DNA of 64,000 nt from a virus. Its lineage: Duplodnaviria; Heunggongvirae; Uroviricota; Caudoviricetes. The notes below the pieces were generated by a model. The model saw only the letters and a program-made list of their open reading frames with translations, was not told the origin of the DNA and did not search any database. Location of the stretch: the IMG/VR virus record IMGVR_UViG_3300030379_000158; one strand, 5' to 3'. This document shows, in pieces, positions 58,495-64,000 of the stretch (its first letter is position 1; each line of letters starts with the position of its first letter). Both the position numbers and the translations under genes were made by a program.

Positions 58495-58684
58495 CCACCC
58501 TGCCCCCAAAAGTGCATTTATGTGCAGGATGCCAGAGTTTAGCAGTGAATATTTTGATGATCTGCCAGCGTATATCCTCGATACAGAAACGATGCTGATG
58601 GGGATTAACAGGAAGAATCGCAACGTTAATGATTACAACCGCGCTATCAGCGGTATGAACCGCCCCGGGAATCCTGGAGACTAA
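58349..58684 (+). CDS. o-spanin (Rz1-like lipoprotein) candidate, 3' end altered by IS629 insertion
   Basis: Lipobox FLLTLSGC, Pro-rich segment [11 protein letters not shown]; reading frame runs 29 nt into the IS629 left end so the last codons are IS-derived. Confidence 0.5.
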
Positions 58685-58709
58685 ACTTCCTGAGAAAGAG
58701 GTAAACAGG

Positions 58710-59036
58710 ATGACTAAAAATACTCGTTTTTCCCCCGAAGTCCGTCAACGGGCAGTCCGTATGGTTCTGGAAAGTCAGGATGAATATGACTCACAGTGGG
58801 CGGCAATTTGTTCCATTGCCCCAAAGATTGGCTGTACGCCGGAGACTCTGCGTGTCTGGGTTCGCCAGCATGAGCGGGATACCGGGGGCGGTGATGGTGG
58901 GCTCACCAGCGCTGAACGTCAGCGTCTGAAAGAGCTGGAACGTGAAAATCGTGAACTGCGCCGCAGTAACGATATCCTTCGCCAGGCTTCCGCTTATTTT
59001 GCGAAGGCGGAGTTCGACCGCCTCTGGAAAAAATGA
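58710..59036 (+). CDS. IS629 transposase OrfA
   Basis: [55 protein letters not shown]..., helix-turn-helix IS3-family OrfA. Confidence 0.9.
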
Positions 59037-59923
59037 TGCCACTGCTGGATAAGCTGCGTGAGCAGTACGGGGTCGGACCGGTATGCAGCGAACTGCATAT
59101 TGCCCCGTCAACGTATTACCATTGTCAGCAACAGCGACATCATCCGGATAAACGCAGTGCCCGTGCGCAGCACGATGACTGGCTGAAGAGAGAGATACAG
59201 CGCGTATACGATGAAAATCATCAGGTGTACGGTGTGCGTAAAGTCTGGCGTCAGTTGTTACGGGAAGGAATCAGGGTGGCCAGATGTACAGTGGCGCGCC
59301 TCATGGCGGTTATGGGACTTGCCGGTGTTCTCCGGGGTAAAAAGGTCCGTACGACCATCAGCCGGAAAGCCGTTGCCGCAGGCGACCGCGTAAACCGTCA
59401 GTTCGTGGCAGAACGACCTGACCAGCTGTGGGTGGCTGATTTTACTTACGTCAGCACATGGCGGGGCTTCGTCTATGTGGCGTTCATCATTGATGTGTTT
59501 GCCGGATACATCGTGGGGTGGCGGGTCTCATCGTCCATGGAAACGACATTCGTGCTGGATGCACTGGAGCAGGCGTTATGGGCCCGTCGACCGTCCGGCA
59601 CGGTCCATCACAGTGATAAAGGTTCTCAGTATGTATCGCTGGCCTACACACAGCGGCTTAAGGAAGCCGGATTACTGGCATCAACAGGAAGTACAGGCGA
59701 CTCGTATGACAACGCGATGGCGGAGAGCATCAATGGTCTTTACAAAGCGGAGGTAATACACCGTAAGAGCTGGAAAAACCGTGCAGAAGTGGAACTGGCC
59801 ACACTCACGTGGGTGGACTGGTATAACAATCGACGATTGCTGGAAAGGCTGGGCCATACTCCTCCGGCAGAAGCAGAAAAAGCTTATTATGCTTCCATCG
59901 GAAACGATGATCTGGCAGCCTGA
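59033..59923 (+). CDS. IS629 transposase OrfB (DDE integrase core)
   Basis: DDE motif context ...VADFTYV...HHSDKGSQY...[10 protein letters not shown]; overlaps orfA as expected for programmed frameshifting. Confidence 0.9.
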
Positions 59924-59982
59924 GTTCACAGATAAAACACTCTCCAGGAAACCCGGGGCGGTTCAGTAACTAAAAGGGATTT

Positions 59983-60375
59983 TTGTCTGATAAAGTAACA
60001 GTTAAGCAAACTATCAACAAAGCGACTTCAATCTACAAAATTGAGCACATCACTGTTGGCAAGCTAGGATCTGAACAATACCGTCATGCTTTCGAACTTG
60101 CCGATCAACTTGGTTTAAAACATCCGGATTGTATCGAGCATGTATTTCCGACCTATGCTGATGAGCAATGTACTCATGTTCTTACCGAAGAGGATTTTTT
60201 CAGCACTGAAGAACGAGAAGGAGTTGATCGCTGCATTGGTGTGATTTGCTCTTCAGTGAGTTATGAGTTATTCCCTAATGTCCATGAAGATGGTGGTGTT
60301 GGATACCAATTCCTGTATGAAGGCGATGAGCTTAAATGTTATGAACATGGTCTTCTTATCGAAAGCGTAGAATAA
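59983..60375 (+). CDS. Hypothetical protein (130 aa, TTG start in ORF table)
   Basis: ORF between IS629 and oriR, followed by hairpin aaccggc-tttgtt-gccggtt. Confidence 0.4.
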   Translation: MSDKVTVKQTINKATSIYKIEHITVGKLGSEQYRHAFELADQLGLKHPDCIEHVFPTYADEQCTHVLTEEDFFSTEEREGVDRCIGVICSSVSYELFPNVHEDGGVGYQFLYEGDELKCYEHGLLIESVE

Positions 60376-60418: not shown

Positions 60419-60631
60419 TTATCCACAGCATAGATCCAATAAACAGATCCTAAAGAGAACCTAGGAAGATCCAAAGAAGATCCCGGATCGCTGTAAGCCG
60501 CGTCATTACTGGCCTGAAATGGGATCAACATTGACTATACGCGATTTTATGTTGACTGTGCACGATTTATTGTTGACTGCACGCGATTTATTGTTGACTA
60601 TACGCGACAGAAACATTGACTGTAAGCGATT
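60419..60631. other. Plasmid replication origin oriR: DnaA box, GATC heptamer cluster and five incC iterons
   Basis: TTATCCACA at 60419-60427; GATC sites at 60435-60525 (four AGATCC); five ~19-bp iterons ttgact(a/g)t(a/g)(c/a)(g/a)cg at 60531, 60552, 60573, 60594, 60617. Confidence 0.8.
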
Positions 60632-60710
60632 TTAGAGTCTGAATATTCACAGCTGTTGATAACAGCCATCCAAATTGACGTCAGGCCGCGCCACACATGG
60701 AGAAACCGTG

Positions 60711-61595
60711 ATGCCGGAAGAAAGTAAAGGCTTCCTTAGCGTTGAAGAAGTTGCAGGAAATACAGGAGAAATCCACAGCCTGAAGCCCAATAACAACAGC
60801 ACTATACAACCCATCGCTTTGTTGCGCTTAGGTGTGTTTGTGCCAACCTTAAAATCTACCAATGTGGCGCTACGTCGCGGATCGTCAGTTACAACAAACA
60901 CAACGAACGCAACTGAAGAACTATCAAGCCTCAAAATTGTTGAGCAGGAAGGCTATGAGGGAATTGAAATTCATGGTCCACGCCTGGATATGGATACTGA
61001 TTTTAAGGTGTGGGTGGGCATAACTTCCGCGTTGTTTGACTACGCACCTGATGATGACGGCATAATCACCCTGCCATTCTCCGAGTTTGCCGATCGATGC
61101 GGCTATCCACGTAAGCGCCTTTCAAAGGCGTTCCGTAAAAGTATTGATGACTCTCTGACACGCATTCAGCAGACAGTTGTCAAATTCCGCTTCCCGGCGG
61201 CAAAAGGTCATCTCAATAACATTAACGTCAACTTGTTGGCATATAGCAGCCTGAATACCGAGCTTGATGTTATCGAGATCCAGCCGCAGAAACAGCTATC
61301 TGAACTTTACTATGTTGACTATAAGCGAATCCTGAAGCTGAAGATGCTGGATAAACTAGGGCGCAAAGAGACGGCCAAGGTACTGTATACATTCTTTGAG
61401 GCTCTACCCGCCAACCCGGCACCTGTCAGCATTGAGCGCCTTAGAGCGAGGCTTAATCTCAAATCATCCGTTAGCGTGCAAAATAGCGTTATCAGAAAAG
61501 CCATGAAAGATTTGGAAGCTATTGAATATCTTAAATTTTCAGAGATAAAAAACGGCAGGAAAATCGGCTTCCAGATCCATAAGCGCAATCCATAA
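60711..61595 (+). CDS. repA: Plasmid replication initiator RepA (P1 RepA family, divergent variant)
   Basis: ATG at 60711 after GGAG; IQPIALLRLGVFVP...HGPRLDMDTDFKVW...LSFARIR-like blocks aligned to recalled P1 RepA; flanked by iterons. Confidence 0.85.
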   Translation: MPEESKGFLSVEEVAGNTGEIHSLKPNNNSTIQPIALLRLGVFVPTLKSTNVALRRGSSVTTNTTNATEELSSLKIVEQEGYEGIEIHGPRLDMDTDFKVWVGITSALFDYAPDDDGIITLPFSEFADRCGYPRKRLSKAFRKSIDDSLTRIQQTVVKFRFPAAKGHLNNINVNLLAYSSLNTELDVIEIQPQKQLSELYYVDYKRILKLKMLDKLGRKETAKVLYTFFEALPANPAPVSIERLRARLNLKSSVSVQNSVIRKAMKDLEAIEYLKFSEIKNGRKIGFQIHKRNP

Positions 61596-61597
61596 TA

Positions 61598-61852
61598 TTG
61601 ACTATATGCGATAGCGAGAAGTTGACTATAGGCGACATTCGTTGACGCTGGTGGATTTTTGCTGGCGTCAATATTCTGCAAGTCGCTATTGAGATGGCTT
61701 TTAGGGGCATTTCATCGCGTATAGTCAACGTTTCTCCCGACAATATCTTACATAGTCGATCTTTGGTGGAGTTAAATCGACTACAGTCAACTTTTGACTG
61801 TAGTCACATCGCGCATAGTCAACTATTCACATTAACCTTCGCGCATAGTCAA
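61598..61852. repeat. incA-like iteron array (copy-number control locus)
   Basis: At least seven ttgactatatgcgat-type iterons in both orientations downstream of repA. Confidence 0.75.
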
Positions 61853-61887
61853 CATTTGCGCGGTTCTCATCAAGCAGTGGTATTGAT

Positions 61888-62697
61888 ATGCAAGAAGAGA
61901 AACAACACTACCTCTACGTTCTGGTGCCAGAGAACGGAGATACTTTTAAAATCGGCATTTCATGTGGTCCATTGGCACGGTTTAAAGGGCTACAAGTGAG
62001 TCCCGATTTTGCGCTTTCACGGGTCTATCGTGGTACGCGTTTGGCAATGGTTAATCTTGAGCGGGCTTTACACGCAACCTTTTTCCCCTGGAATGCGCCG
62101 TGGGAGAAAAGCGTCGGTGGCGGGCATACTGAATGGTTTACACGAGAGTGTCTTGATAAGGTTTTGGCTCATATCGAATATCTAAATGATATGTGGGGAG
62201 GGATTCTCGAGCGCATTAAGTCGAATGATTTACTTCAGCGTCCAGTAGATGCTGCTTGCTCTTTCGAAAAAGAGCTGGATGTTACTTCTATCGTGACTTT
62301 CAAAGATGACGCAGGAATGAGGGACGTGGCTTATGTCTCCATATCTGGCTATGAACCGGACGCGATCCGCGCTCAATGTGAATTGCTGAAAGCAATGTTT
62401 ATGCTTCGGACTAAATATCCCTGGGATACAGGGCGGGTGTGCTTCCCTATGGAAGAGTTAACCGCCACCATTGATTCCCAGCTTTACCACGATAATCCAG
62501 AGAAGTTTTTTAGCCTTTTAGCCGGTAATGGGCTTAACTGTGTGTCCGGGCTGGGGCGAAGTAGAATCCAACATGCCTCGCTCTTCGGTCCCTTCTTTTA
62601 CGATCGACACGGGTACTTTGAGGCTGAACTTCCGGCGCTTACGCGTGCTATAGATACTATCGATTTCGAACGATTATTCGCTGCTCTTAGCAAATAA
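61888..62697 (+). CDS. GIY-YIG / T5orf172-like domain protein (269 aa) inserted between incA and parA
   Basis: N-terminus HYLYVLVPENGDTFKIGIS...R...GGHTEWF fits the GIY-YIG/T5orf172 pattern; C-terminal ~160 aa unassigned. Confidence 0.5.
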   Translation: MQEEKQHYLYVLVPENGDTFKIGISCGPLARFKGLQVSPDFALSRVYRGTRLAMVNLERALHATFFPWNAPWEKSVGGGHTEWFTRECLDKVLAHIEYLNDMWGGILERIKSNDLLQRPVDAACSFEKELDVTSIVTFKDDAGMRDVAYVSISGYEPDAIRAQCELLKAMFMLRTKYPWDTGRVCFPMEELTATIDSQLYHDNPEKFFSLLAGNGLNCVSGLGRSRIQHASLFGPFFYDRHGYFEAELPALTRAIDTIDFERLFAALSK

Positions 62698-62706
62698 CAC
62701 TGATGC

Positions 62707-62726
62707 CCCTGAACGGGGCTTTTTTG
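62707..62726 (+). terminator. Rho-independent terminator
   Basis: gcccc-tgaa-cgggg-c followed by TTTTTT. Confidence 0.6.
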
Positions 62727-62865
62727 TGCCCTCCTTGTAACTCTCAATCGTGCAAAATGAACCAAACATGCAGAGAATGCTATGTACAAGCATCTACGCA
62801 TACATTATTATTTTATGCAGCATTTTTAATTAAATTCAAAAATACAGCATAAAGGATGACTTTCG

Positions 62866-64000
62866 ATGAGTGATTCCAGCCAGCTTCACAAGGTTGCTCA
62901 AAGAGCAAATAGAATGCTCAATGTTCTGACTGAACAAGTACAGTTGCAAAAGGATGAGCTACACGCGAACGAGTTTTACCAGGTCTATGCGAAAGCGGCA
63001 CTGGCAAAATTGCCTCTACTGACTCGTGCGAACGTTGACTATGCCGTAAGTGAAATGGAAGAAAAGGGTTATGTTTTCGATAAACGCCCTGCTGGCTCTT
63101 CAATGAAATATGCGATGTCAATTCAGAACATCATTGACATATATGAACATCGCGGAGTGCCAAAATACCGGGATCGCTACAGCGAAGCGTATGTGATTTT
63201 CATCTCCAATCTTAAAGGCGGTGTGTCAAAAACTGTATCGACGGTTTCTCTGGCGCATGCAATGCGTGCTCATCCTCATCTTCTGATGGAAGATTTAAGG
63301 ATTCTGGTTATTGACCTTGATCCGCAATCTTCAGCAACGATGTTTTTAAGCCATAAACACTCTATTGGTATCGTAAACGCAACATCTGCACAGGCTATGT
63401 TGCAGAATGTAAGCCGTGAAGAGCTGTTAGAGGAGTTTATTGTTCCTTCTGTTGTACCTGGGGTTGACGTTATGCCTGCGTCGATTGACGATGCCTTTAT
63501 TGCATCCGATTGGAGAGAGCTGTGCAATGAGCATCTACCGGGTCAGAACATCCATGCAGTCCTGAAAGAAAATGTGATTGATAAGCTGAAGAGCGATTAT
63601 GACTTTATCCTCGTTGATAGTGGTCCTCACCTTGACGCCTTCCTGAAAAATGCTTTGGCCTCGGCCAATATACTGTTTACACCTCTGCCGCCTGCAACGG
63701 TTGATTTCCACTCATCGCTTAAATACGTTGCCCGCCTTCCTGAGTTGGTGAAACTCATTTCGGATGAAGGCTGCGAGTGTCAGCTTGCAACTAACATTGG
63801 ATTTATGTCCAAGTTGAGTAACAAGGCAGACCATAAGTATTGCCATAGCCTGGCTAAAGAAGTGTTCGGTGGGGATATGCTTGATGTTGTCCTCCCTCGC
63901 CTTGACGGTTTTGAACGCTGCGGCGAGTCTTTTGACACTGTTATTTCAGCTAACCCGGCAACGTATGTTGGTAGTGCTGATGCATTGAAGAACGCGCGAA
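62866..64000 (+). CDS. parA: Partition ATPase ParA (3' end beyond window)
   Basis: N-terminal HTH-like region, deviant Walker A FISNLKGGVSKTVSTV, Walker B FILVDSGP; P1-type ParA with long N-terminal extension. Confidence 0.9.
   Translation, partial: MSDSSQLHKVAQRANRMLNVLTEQVQLQKDELHANEFYQVYAKAALAKLPLLTRANVDYAVSEMEEKGYVFDKRPAGSSMKYAMSIQNIIDIYEHRGVPKYRDRYSEAYVIFISNLKGGVSKTVSTVSLAHAMRAHPHLLMEDLRILVIDLDPQSSATMFLSHKHSIGIVNATSAQAMLQNVSREELLEEFIVPSVVPGVDVMPASIDDAFIASDWRELCNEHLPGQNIHAVLKENVIDKLKSDYDFILVDSGPHLDAFLKNALASANILFTPLPPATVDFHSSLKYVARLPELVKLISDEGCECQLATNIGFMSKLSNKADHKYCHSLAKEVFGGDMLDVVLPRLDGFERCGESFDTVISANPATYVGSADALKNAR

What the first reader, a model, noticed from the sequence alone, without database searches (positions are those of the whole stretch)
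61888..62726. GIY-YIG (T5orf172-like) gene wedged between incA and the parA promoter
In P1-type plasmids the partition operon follows the incA iterons directly. Here an 810-bp ORF with its own terminator lies between them. The N-terminus has the GIY-YIG/T5orf172 signature; the C-terminal 160 aa are unassigned. A nuclease-like gene at this site could be a homing element, an exclusion or defence factor acting on foreign DNA, or a stabilisation function.
Basis: partly seen in the sequence, partly recalled or inferred. Interest (0 to 1): 0.65.

Follow-up and report, generated by a model that had tools for sequence, protein, structure and literature searches.

The report
Dispensable T5orf172 nuclease in P1-like replicon cassette
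A real, already-annotated gene for a two-part DNA-cutting enzyme sits between the plasmid-replication repeats and the partition genes of one large group of P1-like phage-plasmids; it is not needed for replication, decays often, and most likely acts as a selfish or competitive nuclease against related plasmids.

Summary
An 810-bp ORF (61888-62697, +) with a terminator-like hairpin lies between the incA-like iterons and the parA promoter, and its N-terminus is a T5orf172/GIY-YIG domain.

The window is a P1-like phage-plasmid of the 'p0111' replicon type (SJ46/RCS47 group). Against P1, one 2250-bp cassette is replaced: origin iterons, repA, incA-like iterons and this gene. All 401 PLSDB plasmids with this cassette also hold the gene. 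P1, P7 and JK004 lack it.

In billions of proteins the full-length family has only four diverged lineages (25-44% identity). All four sit at this same site, with the ATG 20-30 nt after the last iteron, next to three different iteron types.

The modelled C-terminal domain is a winged helix. Its nearest solved structures are WH1 domains of iteron-binding Rep initiators, with moderate scores and no sequence similarity.

The gene is dispensable. One replicon type occurs with and without it, and at least four independent inactivating mutations were seen while repA and parA show no amino-acid change.

Best reading: a homing-type or marker-exclusion endonuclease. The main rival is an Odn-like nuclease that cuts rival replicons. 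Function is untested. It is a new variant of a known kind, of moderate interest.

The parts
61888..62697 (+). T5orf172/GIY-YIG nuclease gene, 269 aa plus stop codon
   Evidence: ORF; Pfam PF10544; full-length match to phrog_2876; annotated by PGAP in more than 390 plasmids
61888..62202 (+). N-terminal catalytic domain (aa 1 to about 105). Invariant in 15 diverse relatives: Y10, K21, G23, R31, E58, H62, E82-W83-F84
62260..62694 (+). C-terminal domain (aa about 125-269). Winged-helix topology H157-173, S183-187, H188-194, H204-211, S216-220, S243-247. An orphan at sequence level
62705..62726 (+). Terminator-like hairpin GCCCC-TGAAC-GGGGC followed by a T-run
   Evidence: A comparable hairpin plus T-run follows the L004 homologue but not the L002 or L003 homologues
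61594..61857 (.). incA-like iteron array downstream of repA: two direct and four inverted copies of TTGACTATACGCGA. The last copy ends 30 nt before the ATG
   Evidence: The same layout occurs in L002, L003 and L004, with gaps of 25, 20 and 20 nt to the ATG
60711..61595 (+). repA, p0111-type iteron initiator. 42% identical to P1 RepA, with weak Pfam Rep3_N and Rep3_C matches
60527..60634 (+). Origin iterons (incC-like), five direct copies about 21 bp apart
60514..62763 (.). Replicon cassette with no homology to P1. Homology to P1 ends at 60513 and resumes at 62764
   Evidence: blastn of the window against the P1 locus
62866..64000 (+). parA (runs off the window). 100% identical in protein to P1 ParA over the 378 aa present

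Best explanation
The ORF encodes an accessory, two-domain, sequence-directed DNA endonuclease. It has a T5orf172/GIY-YIG catalytic head (aa 1 to about 105), a helical linker, and a C-terminal winged-helix domain whose nearest structural neighbours are WH1 domains of iteron-binding Rep initiators.

The gene behaves as a free-standing homing-type gene lodged at the junction between the incA iterons and the par promoter of P1-like phage-plasmids.

Proposed mechanism (inferred, not shown): the winged-helix domain docks on DNA at or next to the last incA iteron of a related P1-like genome that lacks the gene, and the tethered nuclease cuts nearby. The broken genome is then either repaired from the gene-carrying genome, which copies the gene and necessarily the non-homologous replicon cassette beside it, or it is lost. 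The carrier escapes because the gene itself interrupts the cleavage site.

After fixation in the p0111 cassette no targets remain, so the gene drifts and decays.

Shown here: domain identities, intact catalytic motifs, conserved site, presence/absence polymorphism, dispensability and recurrent decay. Inferred: DNA binding, the target, cleavage and gene conversion.
For: 1. Nuclease head. T5orf172 scores above the Pfam cut-off in 4 of 4 lineages. Catalytic-type residues are invariant across 15 relatives that are only 20-44% identical. The fold matches SLX1 and phage T5orf172 or 'homing endonuclease' proteins.

2. The layout of nuclease, linker and winged-helix DNA-binding-type domain is that of I-TevI/Seg-type GIY-YIG homing enzymes (established knowledge) and of ICP1 T5orf172 homing-endonuclease-like proteins (PMC8096241).

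3. Sporadic presence at one precise intergenic site. L003 and JK004 have RepA 91% identical and homologous incA arrays, but L003 carries 980 bp with the gene where JK004 has 75 bp. P1 also lacks the gene and shows no relic.

4. All four diverged lineages (25-44% identity) place the ATG 20-30 nt after the last iteron, although the iterons are of three types.

5. The family exists nowhere else in 1.8 billion representative or 5.8 billion clustered proteins.

6. The pattern fits a homing-gene life cycle. The gene is fixed in the p0111 cassette (401 of 401 plasmids). Selection is relaxed: dN/dS is about 0.23-0.40, while repA and parA have no amino-acid change in the same genomes. At least four independent knock-outs were verified at the DNA level: L93*/W103*, S112*, K176* and a 2-bp deletion. 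A split tblastn match in phage 673R5 suggests a further frameshift.

7. Divergence of the nuclease does not track RepA. Window against L002: RepA 84%, nuclease 44%. L003 against L004: RepA 45%, nuclease 41%.
Against: No cleavage site or target is identified, and nothing was tested experimentally.

The gene may simply be ancestral to P1-type replicons and lost several times. Its overall divergence (27-44%) is of the same order as RepA divergence between types (42-49%).

Inheritance together with repA is uninformative. No homology exists between cassettes that would let recombination separate the two genes.

The window and L002 share the same iteron core, yet their C-terminal domains are only 33% identical. 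That is awkward if the domain reads the iteron itself.

No consensus promoter was found upstream in any lineage.
Confidence: 0.4

Rival explanations
1. Odn-like replicon-directed exclusion nuclease. The Rep-WH1-like domain recognises the iterons, or the RepA-iteron complexes, of a rival P1-like replicon type. The nuclease destroys that replicon, so an incoming or resident p0111-type element displaces competitors. This would be a nuclease-based layer of plasmid incompatibility, and no gene conversion is needed.
Against: There is no sequence similarity to any P1-type RepA (hhalign probability 0.2%), unlike Odn and PLE RepA. P1-like elements of both replicon types share identical ParA here. From established knowledge of P1 par incompatibility they are likely to exclude each other through partition incompatibility anyway. 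Frequent inactivation suggests little ongoing benefit. No target is identified.
Confidence: 0.2
2. Anti-phage defence or superinfection-exclusion nuclease carried as prophage cargo. It would cut the DNA of unrelated infecting phages.
For: T5orf172 and GIY-YIG nucleases occur in defence contexts. One N-domain relative (P0013) lies among WYL, Mrr_cat and Ymh-type genes in Cupriavidus. Phage-plasmids often carry defence genes (abstract of PMC13221032, listed).
Against: PADLOC gives no match. The family is confined to one site of P1-like replicons in four lineages rather than sitting in the usual variable cargo regions. There is no partner gene for self/non-self discrimination. The gene is often inactivated.
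Confidence: 0.12
3. Replicon accessory factor. The WH1-like domain pairs with RepA's WH1 dimerisation surface or binds the element's own iterons. It would modulate initiation, handcuffing or copy number, possibly by nicking.
For: In Rep initiators WH1 is the dimerisation domain (PDB 1hkq and 2z9o, matched). The gene starts 20-30 nt after the last incA iteron in every lineage and has no recognisable promoter of its own, so its expression is probably coupled to repA transcription and RepA occupancy.
Against: P1, P7 and JK004 replicons, including one with 91% identical RepA, work without it. Copies with premature stops persist in plasmids whose repA and parA are untouched. The C-terminal domain differs strongly (33% identity) between two lineages with the same iterons and 84% identical RepA.
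Confidence: 0.1
4. A relic with no present function, merely hitch-hiking beside repA.
For: Recurrent nonsense and frameshift alleles. Large clusters of truncated products: 181 aa with 205 members and 168 aa with 229 members, against 1241 members for the full-length form.
Against: Most copies are intact. dN/dS stays below 1, at about 0.23-0.40. Catalytic residues and the whole two-domain layout are kept across lineages only 25-44% identical.
Confidence: 0.08

Closest known systems
ICP1 Odn (Gp88), origin-directed nuclease (PMC8263062)
   Same: A T5orf172/GIY-YIG nuclease fused to a DNA-binding module of replication-initiator type. It is small (under 300 aa), stand-alone and carried by a mobile element. 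It is tied to iteron replicons.
Free-standing GIY-YIG homing endonucleases of phages (I-TevI, T4 Seg proteins; T5orf172/CapR-homology proteins of ICP1, PMC8096241)
   Same: An N-terminal GIY-YIG-type catalytic domain, a linker and a separate DNA-binding domain. An intergenic position between conserved genes. Presence or absence among close relatives. Signs of decay after fixation.
   Different: The C-terminal domain is a winged helix of Rep-WH1 type, not the zinc-finger/HTH of I-TevI or a CapR, Bro-N or KilA-N domain. Mobility, target and gene conversion are not demonstrated. The host locus is a plasmid replicon rather than a lytic-phage gene cluster.
SLX1 / URI-domain structure-specific nucleases
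   Different: Only the catalytic fold is shared. There is no RING/PHD domain and no SLX4-type partner, and the biology is unrelated.
WH1 domain of iteron-plasmid initiators (pPS10 RepA 1hkq, F RepE 2z9o, MSBI1.176 6h24, RctB 5ubf)
   Same: The best structural matches for the C-terminal domain in two independent programs. The domain has winged-helix topology with extra N-terminal strands.
The same gene in published P1-like phage-plasmids (JL22 gp57, RCS47 p0064, SJ46)
   Same: 94-100% identical protein. [quoted passage not shown]
   Different: Those records and papers give no function. One phage record (phi456) labels it 'terminase small subunit', which nothing here supports.

Membership tests
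T5orf172 domain (Pfam PF10544), GIY-YIG superfamily | Profile match above the curated cut-off | tested here: met
   26.9 bits against a cut-off of 20, over aa 8-85. Four of four lineages match.
T5orf172 domain (Pfam PF10544), GIY-YIG superfamily | Conserved catalytic-type residues: Tyr pair in strand 1, K-I-G, Arg, E..LH, and the Glu of the EWF motif | tested here: met
   Y10, K21, G23, R31, E58, H62 and E82-W83-F84 are invariant in 15 relatives. Y8 and Y10 are invariant in the four full-length members. E82 as the counterpart of Odn's catalytic E180 (PMC8263062) is proposed by analogy only; Odn was not aligned here.
T5orf172 domain (Pfam PF10544), GIY-YIG superfamily | GIY-YIG (URI) fold | tested here: met
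T5orf172 domain (Pfam PF10544), GIY-YIG superfamily | Metal-dependent DNA cleavage | not testable with these tools
   Needs purified protein.
Free-standing homing endonuclease gene | Nuclease domain plus a separate DNA-binding domain | tested here: met
   Two-domain model with a winged-helix C-terminal domain. DNA binding itself is inferred.
Free-standing homing endonuclease gene | Presence/absence polymorphism at one site between otherwise homologous genomes | tested here: met
   L003 (980 bp with the gene) against JK004 (75 bp), with RepA 91% identical and flanks 79-95% identical. P1 lacks the gene.
Free-standing homing endonuclease gene | Cuts the gene-less allele and is copied into it | not testable with these tools
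   Needs cleavage assays and crosses.
Free-standing homing endonuclease gene | Gene phylogeny independent of the host locus | tested here: inconclusive
   Identities do not track RepA (84 against 44%; 45 against 41%). With four lineages, however, rate variation cannot be separated from transfer.
Odn-like origin-directed nuclease | DNA-binding domain homologous in sequence to a replication initiator's origin-binding domain | tested here: not met
   hhalign of the C-domain profile against the P1-type RepA profile gives probability 0.2%. BLASTP finds nothing. No Pfam match.
Odn-like origin-directed nuclease | Structural similarity of the binding domain to an initiator domain | tested here: inconclusive
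Odn-like origin-directed nuclease | Iteron-dependent cleavage of a replicon origin | not testable with these tools
   Needs biochemistry.
Core P1-type plasmid replicon (oriR/incC-repA-incA) | Present in all members and required for replication | tested here: not met
   Absent from P1, P7 and JK004. Nonsense and frameshift alleles occur in otherwise intact plasmids.
Known anti-phage defence systems (PADLOC-DB v2) | Match to a defence-protein model | tested here: not met
   No family at E up to 1.

The most novel reading that the evidence does not exclude
The protein is a replicon-directed nuclease: a GIY-YIG head guided by a Rep-WH1-like domain to the iterons, or the RepA-iteron complexes, of competing P1-like replicons. 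Plasmid replicon cassettes would then carry their own weapon against rival replicons. This would be a nuclease-based form of incompatibility and displacement, and a plasmid-world counterpart of ICP1 Odn. It could also help explain why whole replicon cassettes are exchanged between otherwise near-identical phage-plasmid backbones.
Probability: 0.2. Interest if true: 0.75.

Novelty: new variant of a known kind. Interest (0 to 1): 0.48.

Why it matters
P1-like phage-plasmids of the p0111 type are common carriers of resistance genes in E. coli and Salmonella. About 400 complete plasmids in PLSDB carry this cassette.

Every one of them holds, inside its replication cassette, a nuclease gene that nobody has characterised.

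If the enzyme cuts related replicons, by homing or by exclusion, it would be a driver of replicon-cassette turnover and of competition between phage-plasmids. It would also extend the Odn principle, a nuclease guided by an initiator-like domain, from a phage-satellite conflict to plasmid incompatibility.

The question is directly testable with simple cleavage and co-residence assays.

If it is only a decaying homing gene, it is still a useful marker of cassette history, but of limited wider interest.

Tried and rejected
1. A single-sequence AF2 model was unusable (pLDDT 36). It was replaced by a model from a five-sequence alignment.

2. Sequence searches for the C-terminal domain found nothing outside the family: exhaustive phmmer, profile search, PDB profile search, Pfam at E up to 10, and BLASTP and hhalign against RepA.

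3. The afdb50 fold library was not available.

4. I looked for a relic of the gene in P1's 171-bp spacer between incA and Ppar, using tblastn and short-word blastn, and found none.

5. I looked for an own sigma-70 promoter upstream in all four lineages and found no consistent candidate. 'Own promoter' is therefore not supported.

6. I asked whether the wider set of N-domain relatives is also linked to replicons. It is not: P0013 lies in a defence-island-like chromosomal region and P0017 in a mobilisable-plasmid region.

7. I first read the en-bloc swap of the gene with repA as evidence of functional coupling, then rejected that. With no homology between cassettes, any gene at this site must travel with repA.

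8. 'Essential replicon component' and 'stabilisation function' were rejected because of the gene-less relatives and the recurrent knock-outs.

9. A preprint on phage-plasmid copy-number heteroresistance could not be read.

10. Base composition shows nothing foreign.

Full report
**1. The observation**

The ORF 61888-62697 (+ strand, 269 aa) is present. A terminator-like hairpin (GCCCC-TGAAC-GGGGC plus a T-run, 62705-62726) follows it 8 nt after the stop codon.

Upstream lie these features:
- repA at 60711-61595;
- five direct origin iterons at 60527-60634;
- after repA, two direct iterons (61594-61640) and four inverted iterons (61715-61857) with core TTGACTATACGCGA.

The last iteron ends 30 nt before the ATG. 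parA begins at 62866.

Pfam T5orf172 (PF10544) matches aa 8-85 at 26.9 bits, above the cut-off of 20. PHROGs gives a full-length match to phrog_2876, of unknown function, and a weaker one to an 'endonuclease' family. NCBIfam and PADLOC give nothing.

**2. What the window is, and how the locus compares with P1**

The region is 98-100% identical to about 400 E. coli, Salmonella and Shigella plasmids and to the phages SJ46, RCS47, JL22 and phi456. These are P1-like phage-plasmids of the replicon type that PlasmidFinder calls p0111 (PMC9603915).

Against P1 itself, homology stops at window 60513, in the DnaA-box/GATC part of oriR. It resumes at 62764, just upstream of the par promoter.

The 2250 bp between those points (origin iterons, repA, incA-like iterons, this gene and its terminator) replace 1491 bp of P1. 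RepA here is 42% identical to P1 RepA, while ParA is 100% identical over the 378 aa present.

In this lineage, then, the gene is part of a swapped replicon cassette and not an insertion into P1's own replicon. [quoted passage not shown]

**3. Distribution**

In PLSDB, 401 records hold the cassette DNA at 95% identity or more. The same number, 401, hold the protein at 90% identity or more. The cassette is never seen without at least part of the gene.

An exhaustive phmmer scan of 1.84 billion representative proteins and a profile search of 5.8 billion clusters found only four diverged full-length lineages:
- the window type (1241 member sequences);
- P0004 (locus L002);
- P0010 (locus L003, Salmonella);
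- P0011 (locus L004, faecal metagenome).

All four lie between repA with its inverted iterons and parA-parB of P1-like elements. In each case the ATG lies 20-30 nt after the last iteron.

The iterons are of three types. The window and L002 have TTGACTATACGCGA. L003 has the P1 type, ATGTGTGCTGGAGGG, with RepA 83% identical to P1 RepA. L004 has GGCTACTGNATGCTAC.

About 65 further proteins share only the N-terminal domain. The two whose surroundings I read are not next to replicons.

**4. The gene is dispensable and comes and goes**

Cronobacter phage JK004 has the L002/L003-type backbone and a RepA 91% identical to that of L003. Its incA array aligns with L003's up to the last iteron. Where L003 has 980 bp holding the gene, JK004 has 75 bp. 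Homology then resumes at 95%.

P1 also lacks the gene, and no relic of it is detectable. P7 gave no protein match.

L002 and L003 are 96-98.6% identical on both sides, but their whole cassette differs. This shows natural cassette exchange. It says nothing about functional coupling, because no homology exists inside the cassettes that would let recombination separate repA from the gene.

Within the p0111 lineage, repA and parA show 7-27 nucleotide differences and no amino-acid change. The nuclease gene shows 6-10 amino-acid changes, with dN/dS of about 0.23-0.40.

At least four independent inactivations were verified at the DNA level among the few copies inspected:
- L93* together with W103*;
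- S112*;
- K176*;
- a 2-bp deletion at nt 122-123.

A split tblastn match in phage 673R5 suggests a further frameshift. Truncated products also form large clusters: 205 and 229 member sequences, against 1241 for the full-length form.

**5. The protein**

Across 15 relatives that are 20-44% identical, these residues are invariant: Y10, K21, G23, R31, E58, H62 and E82-W83-F84. This is the T5orf172 version of the GIY-YIG active site. By analogy, not by an alignment made here, E82 would be the counterpart of the Glu mutated in Odn (E180A; PMC8263062).

An AF2 model built on the five-sequence alignment has a mean pLDDT of 73.

Foldseek against the PDB finds nothing significant; the best E-value is 0.07. 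Its top list is nevertheless again RctB, MSBI1.176 WH1, pPS10 RepA, dozens of RepE54 entries and the pi initiator.

The predicted secondary structure of aa 157-247 has the canonical winged-helix order H-S-H-H-S-wing-S.

At the sequence level the C-terminal domain is an orphan:
- no Pfam match;
- no PDB match;
- no similarity to P1-type RepA by hhalign, at probability 0.2%.

I therefore treat 'winged helix' as well supported on the model. 'Rep-WH1-like' is moderately supported. 'Derived from RepA' is unsupported.

The C-terminal domain diverges much faster than the N-terminal one. Between the window and L002, the C-terminal domain is 33% identical and the N-terminal one 63%, while RepA is 84%.

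**6. Expression**

No consensus sigma-70 promoter precedes the gene in any of the four lineages. Ribosome-binding sequences are weak, as read directly from the sequence.

The ATG abuts the iteron array. Transcription therefore probably reads through from repA or starts within the array, and in either case it would be subject to RepA binding. This is inference only.

The 'own terminator' is seen here and in L004, but not in L002 or L003.

**7. Interpretation**

The evidence that has been shown fits a small, accessory, site-directed endonuclease:
- an intact nuclease head;
- a tethered winged-helix domain;
- a fixed intergenic site beside the iterons;
- presence and absence within one replicon type;
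- restriction to P1-like elements;
- relaxed constraint and recurrent decay once fixed.

This is the behaviour of free-standing GIY-YIG homing genes (I-TevI and Seg proteins, from established knowledge; T5orf172/CapR-homology proteins of ICP1, PMC8096241).

My preferred mechanism, at confidence 0.4, runs as follows. The winged-helix domain docks at or beside the last incA iteron of a gene-less relative. The nuclease cuts nearby. Repair or loss of the broken genome then favours the carrier's locus, and necessarily its whole non-homologous replicon cassette.

The main rival, at 0.2, is the Odn model (PMC8263062): a nuclease guided by an initiator-like domain that destroys rival replicons at their iterons. 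The two readings share the step 'cut related non-self replicon DNA' and differ only in the outcome.

The other rivals are less likely:
- anti-phage defence (0.12);
- a replicon accessory role through RepA's WH1 domain or the element's own iterons (0.1);
- a functionless relic (0.08).

Section 4 (dispensability) argues against the accessory role. Section 5 (conserved active site, dN/dS below 1) argues against the relic. Section 3 (confinement to this one site), the lack of a PADLOC match and the frequent inactivation (section 4) argue against defence.

One point counts against any model in which the domain reads the element's own iteron. The window and L002 share the iteron core, yet their C-terminal domains are only 33% identical.

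**8. Novelty and score**

The gene is already annotated as a 'GIY-YIG nuclease family protein' or 'T5orf172 domain-containing protein', and it has been mentioned as an unknown gene in JL22.

Four points came out of this analysis, and I found none of them in the papers searched:
- its confinement to one site of P1-like replicons, in four deep lineages;
- the clean presence/absence polymorphism;
- the recurrent decay;
- the Rep-WH1-like winged-helix domain.

It is a new variant of a known kind, namely a two-domain GIY-YIG site-specific nuclease that is homing-type or Odn-like. Interest is moderate, because the replicon-warfare reading is attractive and easy to test, but nothing here shows activity or a target.

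Noticed in passing
window 58656-59965: A 1310-bp IS3-family element. Its orfA/orfB products resemble IS629/IS1203 from memory, and its terminal inverted repeats read TGAACCGCCCCGGG... It is inserted with a 3-bp target duplication at the 3' end of the mlp homologue, just upstream of upfA. It is absent from the otherwise collinear plasmid L005.
   Followed up: partly
window 61313-61328; L002 5610-5630: A near-perfect iteron (TGTTGACTATAAGCGA, 94% match to the origin iteron) lies inside the repA coding sequence. It is conserved in the L002 lineage, which is only about 71% identical in DNA. It could be an intragenic RepA site or a result of coding constraint.
   Followed up: no
window 61642-61675: An imperfect inverted repeat (TTGACGC...GCGTCAA, with an iteron-like half) sits between the two direct and the four inverted downstream iterons. 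The right arm is not conserved in L002.
   Followed up: no
L002 4830-7020 against L003 4655-6945: Two Logan contigs have backbones 96-98.6% identical on both sides but completely different replicon cassettes, one p0111-like and one P1/IncY-like. This is a natural replicon swap in a JK004-like P1 relative.
   Followed up: partly
Phage record OR339795.1 (phi456) and PLSDB typing: phi456 annotates this gene as 'terminase small subunit', which nothing here supports. MOB-suite, as reported by PLSDB, types these plasmids as 'IncHI1B' although the replicon is the P1-related p0111 type.
   Followed up: no
window 59983-60375 (upfA homologue): upfA and the adjoining DnaA-box part of oriR are only 89% identical to P1, whereas the region from just upstream of Ppar through parA, on the other side of the cassette, is 98.8% identical. 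The asymmetric flank divergence may mark the older recombination boundary of the cassette exchange.
   Followed up: no
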